A stretch of 64,000 nt of DNA, taken from NCBI GenBank assembly GCA_023489275.1, contig JAMDDD010000024.1, forward strand, positions 10,788 through 74,787, in the 5' to 3' direction. The first letter of the stretch is position 1. Every line of letters starts with the position of its first letter. Source of the stretch: Actinomycetota bacterium. Lineage in GTDB: Bacteria; Actinomycetota; Thermoleophilia; BMS3ABIN01. The translations under genes and the position numbers were made by a program. The notes under the pieces were generated by a model. That model worked only from the letters and a program-made list of their open reading frames with translations, searched no databases and was not told the origin of the DNA. Shown here piece by piece: positions 1,074-57,032 of the stretch.

Positions 1074-1269
1074 CGCTCCTCCTCAATGGGCCGGATTCGC
1101 ATTTTTCTACTTCTACCTCCGGGCTGATTTTGTAAACCAGGGTTTGCCGGCCGGTATAGAACTAATCCGGCGGGTGATTCGTGGCGAGGCCTGGCGGAAA
1201 AAGCCATCCAGCCGCCTCCCTTGACTTTCCGGCGCGGCGGGAATAACTTAAGCAAAGCATAGCCAATCC

Positions 1270-1490
1270 TCGTTAGGTGAGGCTCCAGCGCAGATACAGG
1301 CCGTTGCCCGGAAAGGTCCAAAGACCCCAACGGGTAGAACAGGCATTACCGGAATAAGGTTCTGCCCGAGACGGCTGAGAGAGATCTCTACGGTGCGCTG
1401 TGCCAAAGCTTTGACGAGCTGGGGAAGGTTATGAGCGGTTTGCTGCCGATATTTTTCCGGCCACAGCCGTTTGCGGTTGTCGGTTGATTT
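1270..1490 (+). promoter_or_regulatory. M-box (ykoK leader) Mg2+-sensing riboswitch with a terminator-like expression platform
   Basis: GTTAGGTGAGGCTCC...GCCCGGAAAGGTCCAAAGACCCCAACGGGTAGAACAGG...ATAAGGT...GGCTGAGAG...GCCAAAGCT matches the conserved M-box core blocks. A hairpin and T-tract at ~1450–1490 precede the operon start at 1563. Confidence 0.7.
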
Positions 1491-1562
1491 TTAGCCGATG
1501 TTTGCTAATGAACCTTCCCATGTGGAAGGTTCTTTTGTTTGGCGAGGAGGGTAGAAAGAATC

Positions 1563-2804
1563 ATGTTTTTTTTAAGCAAACTTTTAGGTCAACAGGTGAA
1601 GGATTCCCGTTCGCAGTCAGTAGGCACTCTGGACGACATCGTCGTCTCGCTCAAGCGGAAATATCCTTCGGCAACAAAGCTGGTGGTCAAGAGCGGCCGC
1701 CGGAAGATGCTGCTGCCCTGGGAGCTGGTGCGGAGCTTTGAGGAGTCCACGACGCTGCTAAGGCTGCCGGCCGCCGAGTTGAAAGAGACGGAGCCCGCGG
1801 AAAACGAGATCTTCCTCGCCGGCGATATCATGGACAAACAAATAGTCGATACGGAAGGCCACAAGCTGATCCGTGTCAACGACCTGCAGCTGACCCGCGC
1901 CAACGGCAGCCTGCGGGTAGTGGGCGTGGATATCGGCAGCGGCGCCATCATGCGGAGGCTCGGGCTGGGGCGGATCGCCGACAGGCTTTCGCGGCGGGTA
2001 CAGCCAACTCTGCTTGACTGGAAGACGGTAGAGCCGGTAAGCGGCGAAGCCTCCGGGATGAAGCTCCAGGTAACGCACGACAAGCTGGCGCTGCTCCATC
2101 CGGCCGACATCGCCGACATCGCCAACGAGCTTTCACCGGAAGAGCGGGTGGCGGTGCTGGAATCGCTTGAAGATGAGGTGGCCGCCGACACGGTGGAAGA
2201 AATGCACCCTCACTTTCAGGCGGCTCTGCTTAACGATATGAACGAGCGCAAGGCCGCCATCATCCTCTCCAACATGGACCCTGACGACGCCGCCGACCTG
2301 CTGGCCGATCTGCCGGAGGAGAAAGCCGCCTCCCTGCTGTCGAGCATGCGCCGCAAGGAGGCCCGCGACGTGCAGCAACTGCTGAGCTACGAGGAGGATA
2401 CCGCCGGTGGCATCATGACAACCGAATACGTGTCGCTGCCACCCGGCCTGACCGCCGGCGACGTCATCGACCGGCTGCGGGAGCTGGAGCCAGGCGCCGA
2501 GACAATCAACTACATGTATGTCGTGGACAGGGACGGCCACCTCGCCGGCGTTTTCTCCCTCCGGGACCTGATCCTGGCGACACGGAACCAAAAAGTGGAG
2601 GGCTTCATGGAGCGGAACCTGATCAGCGTCCACACCGACGCCTCCCAGGATGAGGTCGCCCAGGTAGTGGCCAAATACAATCTGCTGGCCGTGCCCGTCA
2701 TCGACGAAGAGAACAAACTGCGCGGTATCATTACCGTAGATGACGCCATCGATATCATCCTGCCGCTCAAGTGGAAGAAACGGCTGCCGAAAATCTTCGG
2801 CTAG
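1563..2804 (+). CDS. Soluble MgtE-type cytosolic sensor protein (N-terminal ~80-aa extension, MgtE_N, tandem CBS); no transmembrane pore domain
   Basis: ATG at 1563 follows GGAGG. The ELSPEE...DPDDAADLL acidic helical region resembles MgtE_N. The GIMTTEYVSLPPGLTAGDVIDRL and LLAVPVIDEENKLRGIITVDDAIDII segments form a CBS pair. The ORF ends without any TM segment. Confidence 0.7.
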   Translation: MFFLSKLLGQQVKDSRSQSVGTLDDIVVSLKRKYPSATKLVVKSGRRKMLLPWELVRSFEESTTLLRLPAAELKETEPAENEIFLAGDIMDKQIVDTEGHKLIRVNDLQLTRANGSLRVVGVDIGSGAIMRRLGLGRIADRLSRRVQPTLLDWKTVEPVSGEASGMKLQVTHDKLALLHPADIADIANELSPEERVAVLESLEDEVAADTVEEMHPHFQAALLNDMNERKAAIILSNMDPDDAADLLADLPEEKAASLLSSMRRKEARDVQQLLSYEEDTAGGIMTTEYVSLPPGLTAGDVIDRLRELEPGAETINYMYVVDRDGHLAGVFSLRDLILATRNQKVEGFMERNLISVHTDASQDEVAQVVAKYNLLAVPVIDEENKLRGIITVDDAIDIILPLKWKKRLPKIFG

Positions 2805-2814
2805 GAGCTTCCTA

Positions 2815-4065
2815 ATGAAACGCCCGAAGGTAATCCCCCGCATCGGCAAGACACGCCTGCTCCTGTTTCTGGCAATAGTCGGGCCGGGAATCATTTCCGG
2901 CAGCGCTGATAACGACGCACCCGGGATATCAACCTATTCAGCGGCCGGCGGCCGATTCGGCTACAGCATGCTGTGGATGTTGCTGATTGTTACCTTCAGC
3001 CTGGCGATCACACAGGAGATGGGAGCCCGAATGGGAATCGTCACCGGCCAGCCGCTGGCCGCCCTGATACGGGAACGTTTCTCAATCCGGATAACTTTCT
3101 TCGCCGTGGCCGTGATGCTAATCGCGGACCTCGGCACAACCATTGGCGAGTTCTCCGGTTCGGCAGATGGCTTTGAGCTGTTTGGGCTTTCCAAGTATTA
3201 CATGGTTCCCCTTGTCGCCCTTCTTGTCTGGCTGCTTGTCGTGCGCGGCTCTTACAGATTTGCCGAAAAAGCATTTCTGGTGCTCTCGGCCTTCTATGTA
3301 ACGTATGTTGTTTCCGCGCTTCTAGCCCATCCTAGCTGGAGCCACGCCTTGCGGAGCACCGTGGTCCCCTCGTTTCAGCTAAATTCAAACTATATTCTCC
3401 TGTTTATCGCCGTTATCGGCACCACAATTACTCCCTGGGGGCAATCTTTCATCCAGTCGTACGTTGTTGATAAAGGCATCTCTGTGAAGCATTTGCGCTA
3501 CAGCCGCATCGACATTATTACCGGGGCGATTCTGACCGACATTATCGCCGCCTTCATCGTCATTGCCTGCGCCGCGACGATCTACGCTTCCGGCGGCCAG
3601 ATTAACACGGCGGCTGAGGCCGCCTCGGGACTGGCGCCGCTGGCGGGCAAGTTTGCCTCCGATCTGTTCGCTTTTGGCCTGCTCAATGCCTCTATCCTGG
3701 CGGCCGCGGTTTTGCCTTTGGCAACCTCCTATGCCATCTGTGGCGCCCTCGGTTTTGAGTCGGGCATCAGCCGTTCTTTTAAGGAAGCGCCGGCGTTTCA
3801 CGGCATCTATACCTTCTTGATTGCAATCGCGGCCATCATTGCCCTGATCCCCGGGCTGCCGCTGTTCAGGATCATGCTTCTCTCGCAGGATCTGAACGGC
3901 ATTCTGCTGCCGATCATTTTGATCTTTGTCATGCTTCTCATCAACGACAGCCGGGTGATGGGAAAATACGTAAACGGCCGCATTTTCAATATTGTCTCCT
4001 GGCTGACCATCGGCTCAATTCTTTTTCTCAGCCTGCTGCTGGTGGCGACCAGCTTCTTCTCGTAG
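2815..4065 (+). CDS. NRAMP-family divalent-cation transporter, NRMT-like (probable Mg2+ transporter)
   Basis: GPGIISGSADNDAPGISTYSAAGGRFGYSMLWMLL is the NRAMP TM1 signature, with the canonical DPGN changed to DAPG. The protein is polytopic (about 11 TM). It lies 11 bp after the MgtE_N/CBS gene, under the M-box leader. Confidence 0.75.
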   Translation: MKRPKVIPRIGKTRLLLFLAIVGPGIISGSADNDAPGISTYSAAGGRFGYSMLWMLLIVTFSLAITQEMGARMGIVTGQPLAALIRERFSIRITFFAVAVMLIADLGTTIGEFSGSADGFELFGLSKYYMVPLVALLVWLLVVRGSYRFAEKAFLVLSAFYVTYVVSALLAHPSWSHALRSTVVPSFQLNSNYILLFIAVIGTTITPWGQSFIQSYVVDKGISVKHLRYSRIDIITGAILTDIIAAFIVIACAATIYASGGQINTAAEAASGLAPLAGKFASDLFAFGLLNASILAAAVLPLATSYAICGALGFESGISRSFKEAPAFHGIYTFLIAIAAIIALIPGLPLFRIMLLSQDLNGILLPIILIFVMLLINDSRVMGKYVNGRIFNIVSWLTIGSILFLSLLLVATSFFS

Positions 4066-4161: not shown

Positions 4162-4326
4162 ATGAATGCTGATGAAATCACGCGGCGTATCGAAGAGTTA
4201 AAACTGGAACTAAGCGAGCTGAGGAAAGTCCGCTCGAACCATGGCGCCCACACTATCGACTTTAAAATGCTGGAAATCGAGGATGAGATCGCCGAGCTGA
4301 AAAACGCTCAATCCGCATCGGCCTGA
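4162..4326 (+). CDS. Small coiled-coil protein, hypothetical
   Basis: ATG at 4162 is preceded by GGAGGGAG. The product is 54 aa with a heptad-like ELKLELSELRK pattern. Confidence 0.35.
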   Translation: MNADEITRRIEELKLELSELRKVRSNHGAHTIDFKMLEIEDEIAELKNAQSASA

Positions 4327-56149: not shown

Positions 56150-56212
56150 CAAAATCATGGTGATGAAGCTCACCATTAACCGCGCCGCGGCGCTAATGGC
56201 TTCTGCAGAAAT
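56150..56212 (+). promoter_or_regulatory. Fluoride riboswitch (crcB motif)
   Basis: GGUGAUGAAGCUCACC...AACCGCGCC...GGCGCUAAUGGCUUCUGC matches the conserved crcB-motif blocks (GAUG, AAC[CU]GCC, CUxAUGGCxUCU). It lies ~60 nt upstream of crcB. Confidence 0.7.
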
Positions 56213-56274
56213 CTGTGGAAGTTTTTTTATGCCCATATCCAGCCTGAATAGGTAAATAAAGATAGGGAGTTAAA

Positions 56275-56649
56275 ATGGAAACCGTCTTTGTAATAGGCAC
56301 CGGAGGTTTTTTCGGAGCCATCAGCCGCTACGCCGTCGCCCTCTGGATTGGTGAGCGCTGGGGGCGCAGCTTTCCGCTGGGAACGCTGGTGATCAATGTC
56401 AGCGGCAGCTTCCTCATCGGCCTGCTGATGTATGTTCTCGGCGACAAGGTGCTGGTCAACCCGCTGTGGCGCTCCTTGCTGGTGATTGGATTCCTGGGCG
56501 CCTACACCACCTTCTCCACCTTCGAGTACGAAACAGGTAATCTGTTGACCGACGGCGAACTCCTTTACGCAATGGTAAATGTCGTGGCCAGTGTCCTGTT
56601 CGGTTTCATGGCGCTCAAGACCGGCGAGCTGATCGCGAAAACAATATAG
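56275..56649 (+). CDS. crcB: Fluoride channel CrcB/Fluc
   Basis: GTGGFFGAISRY and GFLGAYTTFSTF motifs; four TM helices. Confidence 0.85.
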   Translation: METVFVIGTGGFFGAISRYAVALWIGERWGRSFPLGTLVINVSGSFLIGLLMYVLGDKVLVNPLWRSLLVIGFLGAYTTFSTFEYETGNLLTDGELLYAMVNVVASVLFGFMALKTGELIAKTI

Positions 56650-56666
56650 GAGCAAGTAGGAGCAAG

Positions 56667-57032
56667 GTGTTCACGGGTCCCGCGAAAAAACTGACAATTT
56701 ATCTGGATGAAGGGGACAAATTTCATCATAAGCCAATCTACGAGGCTGTGGTCGATATCCTCTACCAGAACCACATCATGGGTCTGAGTGTCTTTAGAGG
56801 GATCGGCGGCTACGGTTCCAATGGAGTCCTGCACACAACCAAGATCCTCGAGTTGTCAACCGACCTGCCGGTAAAAGTGGAGGCAATTGATTCCGCGGAC
56901 AAGATCTACGAAGCGCTGCCGGAGATCGCCGCGGTCGTCGAAAAGGGTCTCATTGAAGTTTCTGACACAAAAGTGATCAAATGCTGCCGTTCGAAAAAGG
57001 ATATTGGACAGAAAAAGACGCCCGATAAATAA
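56667..57032 (+). CDS. DUF190-like (PII-like fold) protein
   Basis: 121-aa protein with LTIYLDEGDKFHHKPIY. This family is a recurrent crcB/fluoride-riboswitch neighbour. Confidence 0.6.
   Translation: MFTGPAKKLTIYLDEGDKFHHKPIYEAVVDILYQNHIMGLSVFRGIGGYGSNGVLHTTKILELSTDLPVKVEAIDSADKIYEALPEIAAVVEKGLIEVSDTKVIKCCRSKKDIGQKKTPDK

What the first reader, a model, noticed from the sequence alone, without database searches (positions are those of the whole stretch)
1270..4065. M-box riboswitch controlling a split MgtE sensor module plus an NRAMP-related (NRMT-like) transporter
The leader at ~1270–1430 reproduces the conserved M-box blocks GUUAGGUGAGGCUCC, GCCC..AAAGGUCCAAAGAC.CCAA.GGGU, AUAAGGU, GGCUGAGAG and GCCAAAGCU. 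A hairpin and T-tract follow, ahead of the first gene.

The operon does not encode MgtE itself. It encodes only MgtE's cytosolic Mg2+-sensing part (N-domain plus tandem CBS, with an extra ~80-aa N-terminal extension that is possibly PRC-barrel-like) as a soluble protein.

Next comes an NRAMP-family permease whose TM1 metal-site motif is DAPG instead of DPGN, and whose TM6 reads TPWGQ instead of MPHN. NRAMP-related Mg2+ transporters under M-box control have been reported (recalled from the literature).

Pairing one with a stand-alone MgtE gating domain suggests a modular, in-trans Mg2+ sensor for a non-MgtE pore. I am not aware that this pairing has been characterised.
Basis: partly seen in the sequence, partly recalled or inferred. 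Interest (0 to 1): 0.6.

Follow-up and report, generated by a model that had tools for sequence, protein, structure and literature searches.

The report
Magnesium riboswitch operon: NRMT plus MgtE-like partner
This is a genuine magnesium-sensing riboswitch in front of a magnesium importer of the NRAMP-related (NRMT) type and a soluble look-alike of the MgtE channel's sensor domain, but this gene arrangement was already described in 2014, so only the partner protein's unknown role is still of interest.

Summary
An M-box riboswitch lies at 1262-1430 (144.5 bits, gathering score 44), followed by a terminator at 1510-1532.

Gene 1 (1563-2804, 413 aa) is soluble. It has two PRC barrels, an MgtE_N domain, a CBS pair and a basic tail, and no membrane domain. 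Gene 2 (2815-4065, 416 aa) is an NRMT. It is 47.6% identical to EleNRMT and carries the DxxG / TxxT-P-W signature, not DPGN / MPH.

The pairing is not new. Shin et al. 2014 (PMC4072509) reported M-box, MgtE-cytoplasmic-domain-like gene and nrmT operons, and proposed the same feedback-sensor idea. Their one co-expression test showed no effect.

What I add:
- MgtE's Mg4, Mg6 and Mg7 ligands are kept. The acidic plug (Mg2, Mg3) is replaced by a conserved basic tail, WKKRLP.
- 47 of 53 diverse soluble homologues sit directly upstream of an NRMT gene. Only about a quarter of these operons carry an M-box.
- Membrane-anchored PRC-MgtE relatives also often neighbour NRMT genes.
- Apparent fusion proteins in the database are frameshift artefacts.

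Verdict: a new member of a known kind, from a Thermoleophilia metagenome-assembled genome. In-trans gating remains plausible but untested.

The parts
1262..1430 (+). M-box (Mg2+) riboswitch aptamer
   Evidence: Rfam RF00380, 144.5 bits (gathering score 44), E 1e-32, full-length match. The same element lies upstream of the orthologous operon in 10 of 10 related Thermoleophilia loci.
1421..1430 (+). 3' strand of the outer P1 helix (GGGGAAGGUU); candidate antiterminator strand
   Evidence: 1421-1426 pairs with 1266-1271 in the covariance-model alignment. 1422-1430 is perfectly complementary to 1511-1519. The forced antiterminator fold is -109.8 kcal/mol against -113.2 for the terminator fold.
1510..1541 (+). 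Intrinsic terminator (9-bp stem GAACCUUCC/GGAAGGUUC, loop CAUGU, U-tract)
   Evidence: Terminator scan and MFE folds. A CCUUCC(C) or CCUCCC hairpin plus U-run is present in all 10 related leaders even though the spacers differ.
1544..1551 (+). Shine-Dalgarno-like GAGGAGGG for gene 1
   Evidence: Read from the sequence; it ends 11 nt before ATG 1563.
1563..2804 (+). Gene 1: soluble PRC-PRC-MgtE_N-CBS-CBS protein, 413 aa (MgtE cytosolic-domain-like partner)
   Evidence: Pfam and NCBIfam. PDB sequence match to the T. thermophilus MgtE cytosolic domain 2yvy, 148.6 bits. Foldseek top hits are MgtE 2zy9 and 2yvy. No hydrophobic segment. A database protein, P0001, is 100% identical.
1563..2072 (+). 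Tandem PRC-barrel module (aa 1-170: barrel 1 about 1-70, barrel 2 about 80-170 with a helical insert at 126-145)
2094..2399 (+). MgtE_N domain (aa 178-279) with D209, D241 and D245, equivalent to E59 (Mg7), D91 (Mg4) and D95 (Mg6) of T. thermophilus MgtE
   Evidence: Pfam, 104.9 bits. Alignment to 2yvy. Site definitions from PMC5882242. These residues are invariant in A1 and near-universal in 150 family representatives.
2412..2759 (+). CBS pair (aa 284-399) with D394 and D397 (equivalent to D247 of Mg4 and D250 of Mg5) and N373 in place of D226
   Evidence: ATP-site residues Y317, R334 and D335 are kept, but F227 becomes L374 and N203 becomes E350.
2760..2801 (+). Basic C-terminal tail LPLKWKKRLPKIFG (5 basic, 0 acidic residues), replacing MgtE's acidic plug helix
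   Evidence: W404, K405, K406 and R407 are invariant in 33 homologues down to 52% identity. Basic tails are general in soluble family members, whereas membrane-fused relatives keep EEATED.
2815..4065 (+). Gene 2: NRMT (NRAMP-related Mg2+ transporter), 416 aa
   Evidence: Pfam Nramp, 314 bits. The NCBIfam MntH model gives 127.7 bits against a cut-off of 430. The best PDB match is EleNRMT 7qia at 394 bits, against 92 bits or less for any MntH/DMT. It is 47.6% identical to EleNRMT over 397 aa.
2914..2925 (+). Alpha-1 metal-site motif DAPG (the DxxG of NRMTs; canonical NRAMPs have DPGN)
   Evidence: signature definition from PMC8806188.
3421..3438 (+). Alpha-6 motif TTITPW (the TxxA/T of NRMTs, with the first alpha-6b His replaced by Trp)
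   Evidence: PMC8806188.

Best explanation
This is a two-gene Mg2+-acquisition operon under an M-box OFF-switch.

Shown or strongly supported:
- The leader is a canonical M-box aptamer.
- The 3' strand of its outer P1 helix can pair either within the aptamer or with the 5' arm of a downstream intrinsic terminator.
- By the established M-box mechanism, high cytosolic Mg2+ compacts the aptamer and sequesters that strand. The terminator then forms and transcription stops before gene 1. At low Mg2+ the antiterminator forms and both genes are transcribed.
- Gene 2 is an NRMT-clade SLC11 transporter. By homology to EleNRMT and C. acetobutylicum NrmT it imports hydrated Mg2+ (and Mn2+) without H+ coupling, driven by the membrane potential.

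Inferred:
- Gene 1 is the dedicated cytosolic partner of this transporter. It is a dimer-forming MgtE-type Mg2+ sensor that keeps the acidic ligands clamping the N domain onto the CBS domain in MgtE (Mg4, Mg6, Mg7 and half of Mg5).
- It has lost the pore and the acidic plug.
- It uses its tandem PRC barrels and/or its invariant basic tail (WKKRLP) to sit at the membrane or on the NRMT.
- It throttles the otherwise uncoupled importer once cytosolic Mg2+ is restored. This would be fast post-translational feedback on top of the slow riboswitch control.
For: Riboswitch:
- RF00380 scores 144.5 bits.
- The terminator is found by the scan.
- 1422-1430 and 1511-1519 are complementary over 9 nt, and the two folds differ by only 3.4 kcal/mol.
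- The same aptamer-plus-terminator layout occurs in 10 of 10 related loci despite divergent spacers.
- The mechanism follows Shin 2014, Fig. 1A.

NRMT:
- EleNRMT is by far the best solved-structure match, at 394 bits against 92 or less for any other.
- DAPG / TTIT-P-W fits the published NRMT signature DxxG - TxxA/T with His replaced by Trp.
- The alpha-10 Gln and alpha-3 Glu are conserved.
- EleNRMT is an uncoupled Mg2+ transporter.

Partner protein:
- It matches the MgtE cytosolic domain in sequence and fold.
- D209, D241, D245, D394 and D397 are invariant or nearly so. Across about 123 soluble family representatives, the Mg4 and Mg6 ligands are Asp in 114-120.
- The site roles come from PMC5882242.
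- The basic tail is invariant.
- 47 of 53 diverse soluble homologues (35-55% identity) with enough downstream DNA have an NRMT-type gene -13 to +311 nt downstream on the same strand, and 11 more have a partial one at a contig end.
- None of the 55 adjacent transporters with a readable motif has DPGN or MPH.
- Membrane-anchored relatives also neighbour NRMT genes.
- Shin 2014 reached the same working hypothesis.
Against: - No experiment links the partner protein to transport.
- NrmT genes alone complemented a Mg2+-transport-deficient B. subtilis strain. Co-expressing the A. capsulatum fragment did not change rescue (PMC4072509).
- The A. capsulatum homologue mainly transports Mn2+ although it has the same partner.
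- One Mg5 ligand is Asn (N373), and the plug ligands for Mg2 and Mg3 are absent.
- Six soluble homologues have no NRMT within about 1.6-4.5 kb downstream.
- No credible natural fusion of the two proteins was found.
- I could not compute a complex model.
- Only about a quarter of such operons carry an M-box, so Mg2+ control of transcription is not a general property of the pair.
Confidence: 0.55

Rival explanations
1. Gene 1 encodes a cytosolic metal chaperone or buffer, or a Mg2+-dependent regulator of another target. The target might be ribosome- or division-related, reached through its PRC barrels. It would be co-induced under Mg2+ starvation but would not act on the NRMT.
Against: Adjacency to NRMT is 89% across 35-55% identity, with translationally tight spacing; many gaps are -3 to +30 nt. 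The same cytosolic module is the gating device of MgtE. A buffer would not need an invariant basic tail or membrane-anchored variants.
Confidence: 0.2
2. The CBS pair of gene 1 mainly senses adenine nucleotides (energy state) rather than Mg2+, as CBS modules do in many transporters, and couples uptake to ATP level.
For: T. thermophilus MgtE binds ATP in its CBS domain through Y170, R187, D188, N203, V207 and F227 (PMC5529423). Y317, R334 and D335 are conserved in gene 1.
Against: The adenine-stacking F227 is Leu (L374, invariant), and N203 is Glu or variable. F227A abolishes ATP binding in MgtE. The acidic Mg2+ ligands at the N-CBS interface are the most conserved feature. This rival does not exclude Mg2+ sensing.
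Confidence: 0.1
3. The physiological substrate of this transporter is Mn2+ (or another transition metal), as for the A. capsulatum clade member. The pair would then be a Mn2+ system that happens to be Mg2+-regulated.
For: A. capsulatum ACP_2977 rescued a Mn2+-uptake mutant and only weakly rescued Mg2+ uptake. EleNRMT also transports Mn2+.
Against: An M-box in front of the operon ties its expression to Mg2+ scarcity. The riboswitch-regulated C. acetobutylicum members transport Mg2+ and not Mn2+ (abstract of PMC4072509). The window protein has Thr at the position of T224, the residue critical for Mg2+ in EleNRMT.
Confidence: 0.1
4. Gene 1 is a decaying remnant of a PRC-MgtE channel gene that lost its membrane domain, and it has no function.
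For: Its closest relatives include full-length PRC-MgtE proteins with a PF01769 domain.
Against: The reading frame is intact, its length is conserved at about 413-420 aa, and dozens of residues are invariant across hundreds of metagenomic sequences and at least 120 clusters at 50% identity. A new conserved C-terminal motif has been gained.
Confidence: 0.03

Closest known systems
M-box - MgtE-like fragment - nrmT operons of Clostridium acetobutylicum (Ca_c0685 locus) and relatives (Shin et al. 2014, PLoS Genet, PMC4072509)
   Same: Same three parts in the same order: an M-box with a terminator, a gene homologous to MgtE's N-terminal cytoplasmic domain, and an NRAMP-related Mg2+ transporter. The same feedback hypothesis has been published.
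   Different: The host is an Actinomycetota (Thermoleophilia) MAG, whereas the paper reports mostly Clostridia and Deltaproteobacteria. The partner here is one 413-aa gene; it is split in two in C. acetobutylicum. The paper does not mention PRC barrels or the basic tail.
EleNRMT, Eggerthella lenta NRMT (PDB 7QIA/7QIC; Ramanadane et al. 2022, PMC8806188)
   Same: 47.6% identity over 397 aa. It shares the DxxG and TxxA/T site, Trp in place of the first alpha-6b His, and the alpha-10 Gln and alpha-3 Glu. Uncoupled Mg2+/Mn2+ uptake is therefore expected.
   Different: DAPG and TTIT here against DAGG and TTIA in EleNRMT. No transport data exist for this protein. The EleNRMT paper does not discuss any partner gene or riboswitch.
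Cytosolic domain of Thermus thermophilus MgtE (PDB 2YVY/2ZY9)
   Same: N domain plus CBS pair, 148.6 bits and about 40% identity in the structural alignment. The ligands of Mg4 (D91/D247), Mg6 (D95) and Mg7 (E59), and D250 of Mg5, are conserved.
   Different: There is no membrane domain and no acidic plug (E258, D259); a basic tail replaces it. D226 is Asn. There is an extra 170-aa tandem PRC-barrel module. The protein is encoded as a separate polypeptide next to an unrelated (LeuT-fold) transporter.
Bacillus subtilis mgtE (ykoK) M-box riboswitch, Rfam RF00380
   Same: Full-length match to the model and a transcription-terminator expression platform that overlaps P1.
   Different: An 80-nt spacer with two extra hairpins separates the aptamer from the terminator. 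The downstream genes are not mgtE, corA or mgtA.
Archaeal PRC-barrel cell-division protein CdpB (PDB 8QZO) and single PRC barrels (RimM C-terminal domain, reaction-centre H subunit)
   Different: Only 12% identity, and there is no functional link. Here the module is fused to an MgtE-type sensor.

Membership tests
M-box riboswitch (Rfam RF00380) | Covariance-model score at or above the curated gathering score, over the whole aptamer | tested here: met
   144.5 bits against 44, model positions 1-169 of 169, E 1e-32.
M-box riboswitch (Rfam RF00380) | Expression platform in which the 3' strand of P1 competes with an intrinsic terminator | tested here: met
   Terminator at 1510-1532 plus a U-tract. 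1422-1430 is complementary to 1511-1519. The terminator fold is -113.2 and the antiterminator fold -109.8 kcal/mol. The layout recurs in related leaders.
M-box riboswitch (Rfam RF00380) | Mg2+-induced compaction and Mg2+-dependent termination | not testable with these tools
   Needs analytical ultracentrifugation, in-line probing or in vitro transcription.
NRMT clade of SLC11/NRAMP | SLC11 fold and family membership | tested here: met
   Pfam PF01566, 314 bits, positions 1-356 of 357.
NRMT clade of SLC11/NRAMP | Groups with NRMTs rather than with Mn2+/Fe2+ NRAMPs | tested here: met
   EleNRMT scores 394 bits; the best MntH/DMT scores 92 bits. The NCBIfam MntH model gives 127.7 bits against a cut-off of 430. 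No formal tree was built.
NRMT clade of SLC11/NRAMP | Binding-site signature DxxG (alpha-1) and TxxA/T (alpha-6) instead of DPGN and AxxM (PMC8806188) | tested here: met
   DAPG and TTIT.
NRMT clade of SLC11/NRAMP | Loss of the proton-pathway histidines on alpha-6b | tested here: met
   The first His is Trp (W208). The second aligns to Ile/Gln in TPWGQSFIQS against TAPWMMFFNQS of EleNRMT.
NRMT clade of SLC11/NRAMP | Mg2+ transport, uncoupled from H+ | not testable with these tools
   Needs proteoliposome or complementation assays.
MgtE Mg2+ channel (TIGR00400 / PF01769) | Five-helix membrane pore domain PF01769 | tested here: not met
   No PF01769 hit. TIGR00400 covers only positions 22-251 of 450 and scores 216.8 against a cut-off of 232.75. 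No hydrophobic segment. Gene 1 is therefore not an MgtE channel, only MgtE-cytosolic-domain-like.
MgtE Mg2+ channel (TIGR00400 / PF01769) | N domain plus CBS pair with the acidic Mg2+ ligands of the N-CBS interface | tested here: met
   PF03448 scores 104.9 bits and PF00571 (two copies) 76.7 bits. D209, D241, D245, D394 and D397 are conserved; D226 is Asn.
MgtE Mg2+ channel (TIGR00400 / PF01769) | Acidic plug helix ligands (E258 for Mg2, D259 for Mg3) | tested here: not met
   The sequence after the CBS pair is LPLKWKKRLPKIFG followed by the stop codon.
MgtE-like ancillary protein of nrmT operons (Shin et al. 2014) | Separate gene homologous to MgtE's cytoplasmic domain, immediately adjacent to and co-oriented with an nrmT gene | tested here: met
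   The stop codon of gene 1 ends at 2804 and the start codon of gene 2 is at 2815. The same arrangement is seen in 10 of 10 near relatives and 47 of 53 distant ones.
PRC-barrel domain (PF05239) | Profile match above the curated cut-off and a PRC-barrel fold | tested here: met

The most novel reading that the evidence does not exclude
MgtE's cytosolic Mg2+-gating module would be a portable device that serves two unrelated pores. In this reading the PRC-PRC-MgtE_N-CBS protein docks non-covalently on the LeuT-fold NRMT, through its PRC barrels and the WKKRLP tail. It closes that otherwise uncoupled uniporter when cytosolic Mg2+ is replete. The membrane-anchored relatives next to NRMT genes, whose MgtE pore domain is weak or undetectable, would be evolutionary intermediates between a self-gated MgtE channel and a detachable regulatory subunit.
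Probability: 0.35. Interest if true: 0.6.

Novelty: new member of a known kind. Interest (0 to 1): 0.3.

Why it matters
NRMTs are the fourth known route of bacterial Mg2+ uptake. Unlike CorA and MgtE, they have no built-in cytosolic sensor, and EleNRMT is not proton-coupled, so how cells avoid overloading is an open question.

The conserved partner gene is the obvious candidate and has stayed uncharacterised since 2014. This locus adds nothing new in kind. The comparative results do give concrete handles for an experiment:
- the tandem PRC barrels;
- the retained Mg4, Mg6 and Mg7 ligands;
- the invariant basic tail that replaces the plug;
- 89% adjacency to NRMT genes;
- the membrane-anchored variants.

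If the partner gates NRMT in trans, it would be an example of a sensor domain being exchanged between unrelated transporter folds.

Tried and rejected
(1) Rosetta-stone test. I searched with a concatenated gene1+gene2 query. It returned six apparent PRC/MgtE_N/CBS+Nramp fusion proteins (P0271, P0272, P0277, P0279, P0282, P0297). I rejected them for these reasons:
- All are single ENA sequences containing long Arg/Pro/Gly/Ala-rich out-of-frame stretches.
- The contig of P0279 (L094) has a further frameshift inside gene 1.
- The true tail and stop codon are visible in another frame.
- A neighbouring dehydrogenase gene on the same contig is split.

(2) The genome-contig scan with the single protein found only 10 close Thermoleophilia relatives, so diversity had to come from the metagenome scan.

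(3) An alignment of 27 divergent N-terminal modules (A2) was too diverse to make search patterns. A1 was used instead.

(5) In the first eight membrane-fused relatives there was a clean split. Those next to an NRMT lacked a PF01769 hit at the cut-off; those not next to one had it. Extra genomes broke this rule, because L099 and L100 have PF01769 and an adjacent NRMT. I keep it only as a trend.

(6) The sigma-70 promoter scan found nothing upstream of the M-box. The promoter is not located.

(7) A literature search for PRC-barrel plus MgtE, and for later work on the MgtE-like partner, found nothing beyond Shin 2014.


Full report
**1. Observation**

The Rfam scan of the whole window gives one M-box hit at 1262-1430 (+). 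It scores 144.5 bits against a gathering score of 44, with E = 1e-32, and matches the full 169-position model. A 9-bp G+C-rich hairpin at 1510-1532 followed by TTTTGTTT is picked up by the terminator scan.

The 3' strand of the outer P1 helix (GGGGAA, 1421-1426) pairs with 1266-1271 in the covariance-model alignment. The overlapping segment 1422-1430 (GGGAAGGUU) is perfectly complementary to the 5' arm of the terminator, 1511-1519. With ViennaRNA, the leader 1262-1545 folds to -113.2 kcal/mol with the terminator. Forcing the antiterminator gives -109.8 kcal/mol. The two states are close in energy, as expected for a switch.

All ten related loci recovered from genomes carry the M-box (130-146 bits). 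Each also has a CCUUCC(C) or CCUCCC hairpin with a U-run before the gene, although the spacers differ in length (90-221 nt) and in sequence. This is the standard M-box OFF-switch described for mgtE and for the nrmT leaders (PMC4072509).

**2. Gene 1**

The ORF lister starts the frame at TTG 1539 (421 aa). ATG 1563 is preceded by GAGGAGGG, and it yields the N-terminus MFFLSKLLGQ shared by all homologues. It also matches a 413-aa database protein that is 100% identical.

Domain content:
- Pfam finds PRC (aa 1-56, 34.6 bits), MgtE_N (178-279, 104.9 bits) and two CBS domains.
- There is no PF01769 membrane domain.
- The mgtE equivalog model aligns only over positions 22-251 of 450 and stays under its cut-off.
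- There is no hydrophobic segment; the largest 19-residue hydropathy average is 0.92.

The best solved relatives are the cytosolic domain of T. thermophilus MgtE (148.6 bits) and, by fold, 2zy9 and 2yvy.

**3. Sensor residues**

I used the 2yvy alignment and the site assignments in PMC5882242: Mg2 E258, Mg3 D259, Mg4 D91/D247, Mg5 D226/D250, Mg6 D95, Mg7 E59. The mapping onto gene 1 is:

| T. thermophilus MgtE | Site | Gene 1 |
|---|---|---|
| E59 | Mg7 | D209 |
| D91 | Mg4 | D241 |
| D95 | Mg6 | D245 |
| D247 | Mg4 | D394 |
| D250 | Mg5 | D397 |
| D226 | Mg5 | N373 |

D209, D241, D245 and D394 are invariant, and D397 is at least 90% conserved, in 33 homologues down to 52% identity. N373 is also invariant there.

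In 150 representatives of the wider family, the Mg4 and Mg6 ligands are Asp in 114-120 of about 123 soluble members and in 23 of 25 membrane-fused members.

The plug ligands have no counterpart. After the CBS pair the protein ends in LPLKWKKRLPKIFG, which has five basic and no acidic residues. W404, K405, K406 and R407 are invariant. Soluble family members in general end in basic tails, while the roughly 600-aa membrane-fused relatives keep the acidic EEATED plug.

Of MgtE's ATP-site residues (PMC5529423), Y317, R334 and D335 are kept. The stacking Phe is Leu (L374) and N203 is Glu, so nucleotide binding is uncertain.

**4. Gene 2**

The likely start is ATG 2815, 10 nt after the stop codon of gene 1 and preceded by GGAG.

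- Pfam Nramp scores 314 bits.
- The NCBIfam MntH model scores 127.7 bits against a cut-off of 430.
- Against all PDB sequences, EleNRMT (7qia) scores 394 bits and the next best, DraNramp, 92 bits.
- Identity to EleNRMT is 47.6% over 397 aa.

The published NRMT signature is DxxG - TxxA/T, with the alpha-6b histidines lost (PMC8806188). The window protein has DAPG and TTIT-P-W. The alpha-10 Gln (EleNRMT Q379) and the alpha-3 Glu (E133) are conserved. EleNRMT is an uncoupled Mg2+ transporter.

**5. What is already known**

Shin et al. 2014 (PMC4072509) searched for M-boxes upstream of non-canonical genes and found them before Nramp-related genes. They showed that two C. acetobutylicum examples import Mg2+. 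[quoted passage not shown]

They speculated that this gene gives cytoplasmic feedback regulation or acts as a chaperone. The gene was not needed for complementation, and co-expressing the A. capsulatum pair changed nothing.

The paper does not mention PRC barrels. The EleNRMT paper does not mention an operon, a riboswitch or an accessory protein. No paper in the searchable library links PRC barrels with MgtE, and none follows up the MgtE-like partner. The architecture is therefore known. The partner's function is still open.

**6. Survey**

The window comes from a Thermoleophilia (Actinomycetota) MAG lineage. In 10 of 10 near relatives the order M-box, gene 1, gene 2 is kept.

A metagenome scan seeded with alignment A1 returned 80 loci at 35-55% identity. 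ORF calling plus phmmer classified them as follows:
- 71 are soluble-type, 8 are membrane-fused and one is cut at a contig end.
- Of the 53 soluble-type loci with at least 1.2 kb of downstream DNA, 47 (89%) have an Nramp-type gene starting -13 to +311 nt after the stop codon on the same strand.
- 11 more show a partial Nramp-type gene at the contig end.
- One locus (L086) has it upstream instead.
- Six have none: L035, L050, L082, L084, L091 and L093.

Among the 55 adjacent transporters with a readable motif, 54 have D-x-x-G, 53 have T-x-x-[T/A/S], and all have P-[W/Y]. None has DPGN or MPH.

M-boxes at the Rfam threshold precede 11 of the 44 soluble-plus-NRMT operons that have at least 400 nt of upstream DNA. 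Riboswitch control is therefore a subset feature, as Shin et al. noted.

The exhaustive representative search shows a large family: 1,525 representatives at E <= 1e-30. The top 150 split into 122 soluble proteins of about 400-450 aa and 25 proteins of about 600 aa. The 600-aa proteins that I checked carry PRC, MgtE_N, CBS and PF01769.

**7. Membrane-anchored relatives**

Long relatives of about 600-660 aa are also frequently followed by an NRMT gene:
- L043, L090 and L092.
- Four Coriobacteriia/Anaerosomatales genomes, L095-L098.
- L099 and L100.

Seven others are not followed by one: L052, L056, L062, L067, L085, L101 and L102.

All seven non-adjacent proteins have PF01769 at or above the cut-off. 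Seven of the nine adjacent ones have no hit or a sub-threshold hit. L099 and L100 do have one. The lineages are not independent, so this is only a trend. M-boxes precede L095-L099 and L102.

**8. Fusion test**

A search with the concatenated proteins surfaced six apparent fusions. Their sequences contain long out-of-frame Arg/Pro/Gly-rich stretches. The one contig I inspected has additional frameshifts and a split neighbouring gene. These are assembly artefacts, so there is no Rosetta-stone evidence.

**9. Conclusion**

The finding is real and correctly annotated. It is a new member, in a new phylum-level host, of an operon type published in 2014, and the mechanistic idea was published with it.

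The most likely working model has three layers:
- Riboswitch-controlled transcription: well supported.
- An uncoupled NRMT Mg2+ importer: supported by homology.
- A dedicated MgtE-type Mg2+-sensing partner that feeds back on that importer: inferred. It is supported by conserved Mg2+ ligands, tight and widespread gene linkage, and a conserved membrane-proximal tail or anchor. It is untested, and the single published co-expression experiment was negative.

Noticed in passing
window 56150-57032: A fluoride riboswitch (RF01734, 47.3 bits against a gathering score of 34) lies directly upstream of a 124-aa protein that looks like CrcB/Fluc by eye (56275-56649, +) and a 121-aa ORF (56667-57032, +). 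This looks like the ordinary fluoride-resistance arrangement. The proteins were not profile-checked.
   Followed up: partly
window 4162-4326 (+): A 54-aa ORF (MNADEITRRIEELKLELSELRKV...) that reads as a likely coiled coil by eye has its own GGAGGGAG ribosome-binding site, 96 nt after the NRMT stop codon. No predicted terminator lies between them. It is conserved at 74-96% identity in the same position in seven related loci (L001-L004, L006, L007, L009), with a weak partial match in L008. It may be a third gene of the operon; there was no Pfam match above the cut-off.
   Followed up: partly
L043, L090, L092, L095-L100 versus L052, L056, L062, L067, L085, L101, L102: Membrane-anchored PRC-MgtE_N-CBS proteins (600-660 aa) are often followed directly by an NRMT gene. 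Those next to an NRMT mostly lack a detectable MgtE pore domain (PF01769); those without an NRMT all have one. The exceptions are L099 and L100. This could be an evolutionary series from a self-gated channel to a detachable subunit.
   Followed up: partly
L011 6252-8887 (also L012): A 55%-identical homologue of gene 1, with an M-box, is followed by two tandem NRMT genes (438 and 439 aa by my ORF calls). Two cation-efflux (CDF) genes follow on the opposite strand.
   Followed up: no
L035, L050, L082, L084, L091, L093: Six soluble homologues of gene 1 have no Nramp-type gene within about 1.6-4.5 kb downstream. L084, L091 and L093 share a variant tail, LPxDWKQRLPRLFR, and come from high-G+C contigs. 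They may pair with something else or act alone.
   Followed up: partly
P0271, P0272, P0277, P0279, P0282, P0297; L094: Database proteins annotated with both Nramp and MgtE_N/CBS/PRC domains are frameshift artefacts of error-prone ENA assemblies, not natural fusions.
   Followed up: yes
L099 6568-7155 and L100 6609-7199: In two operons with a membrane-anchored partner, a third gene of about 195 aa with a faint PRC-barrel hit follows the NRMT gene.
   Followed up: no
P0367: A 455-aa PRC-MgtE_N-CBS protein without PF01769 is recorded from the archaeon Methanocella arvoryzae, so the soluble form is not confined to bacteria. Its gene neighbourhood was not examined.
   Followed up: no
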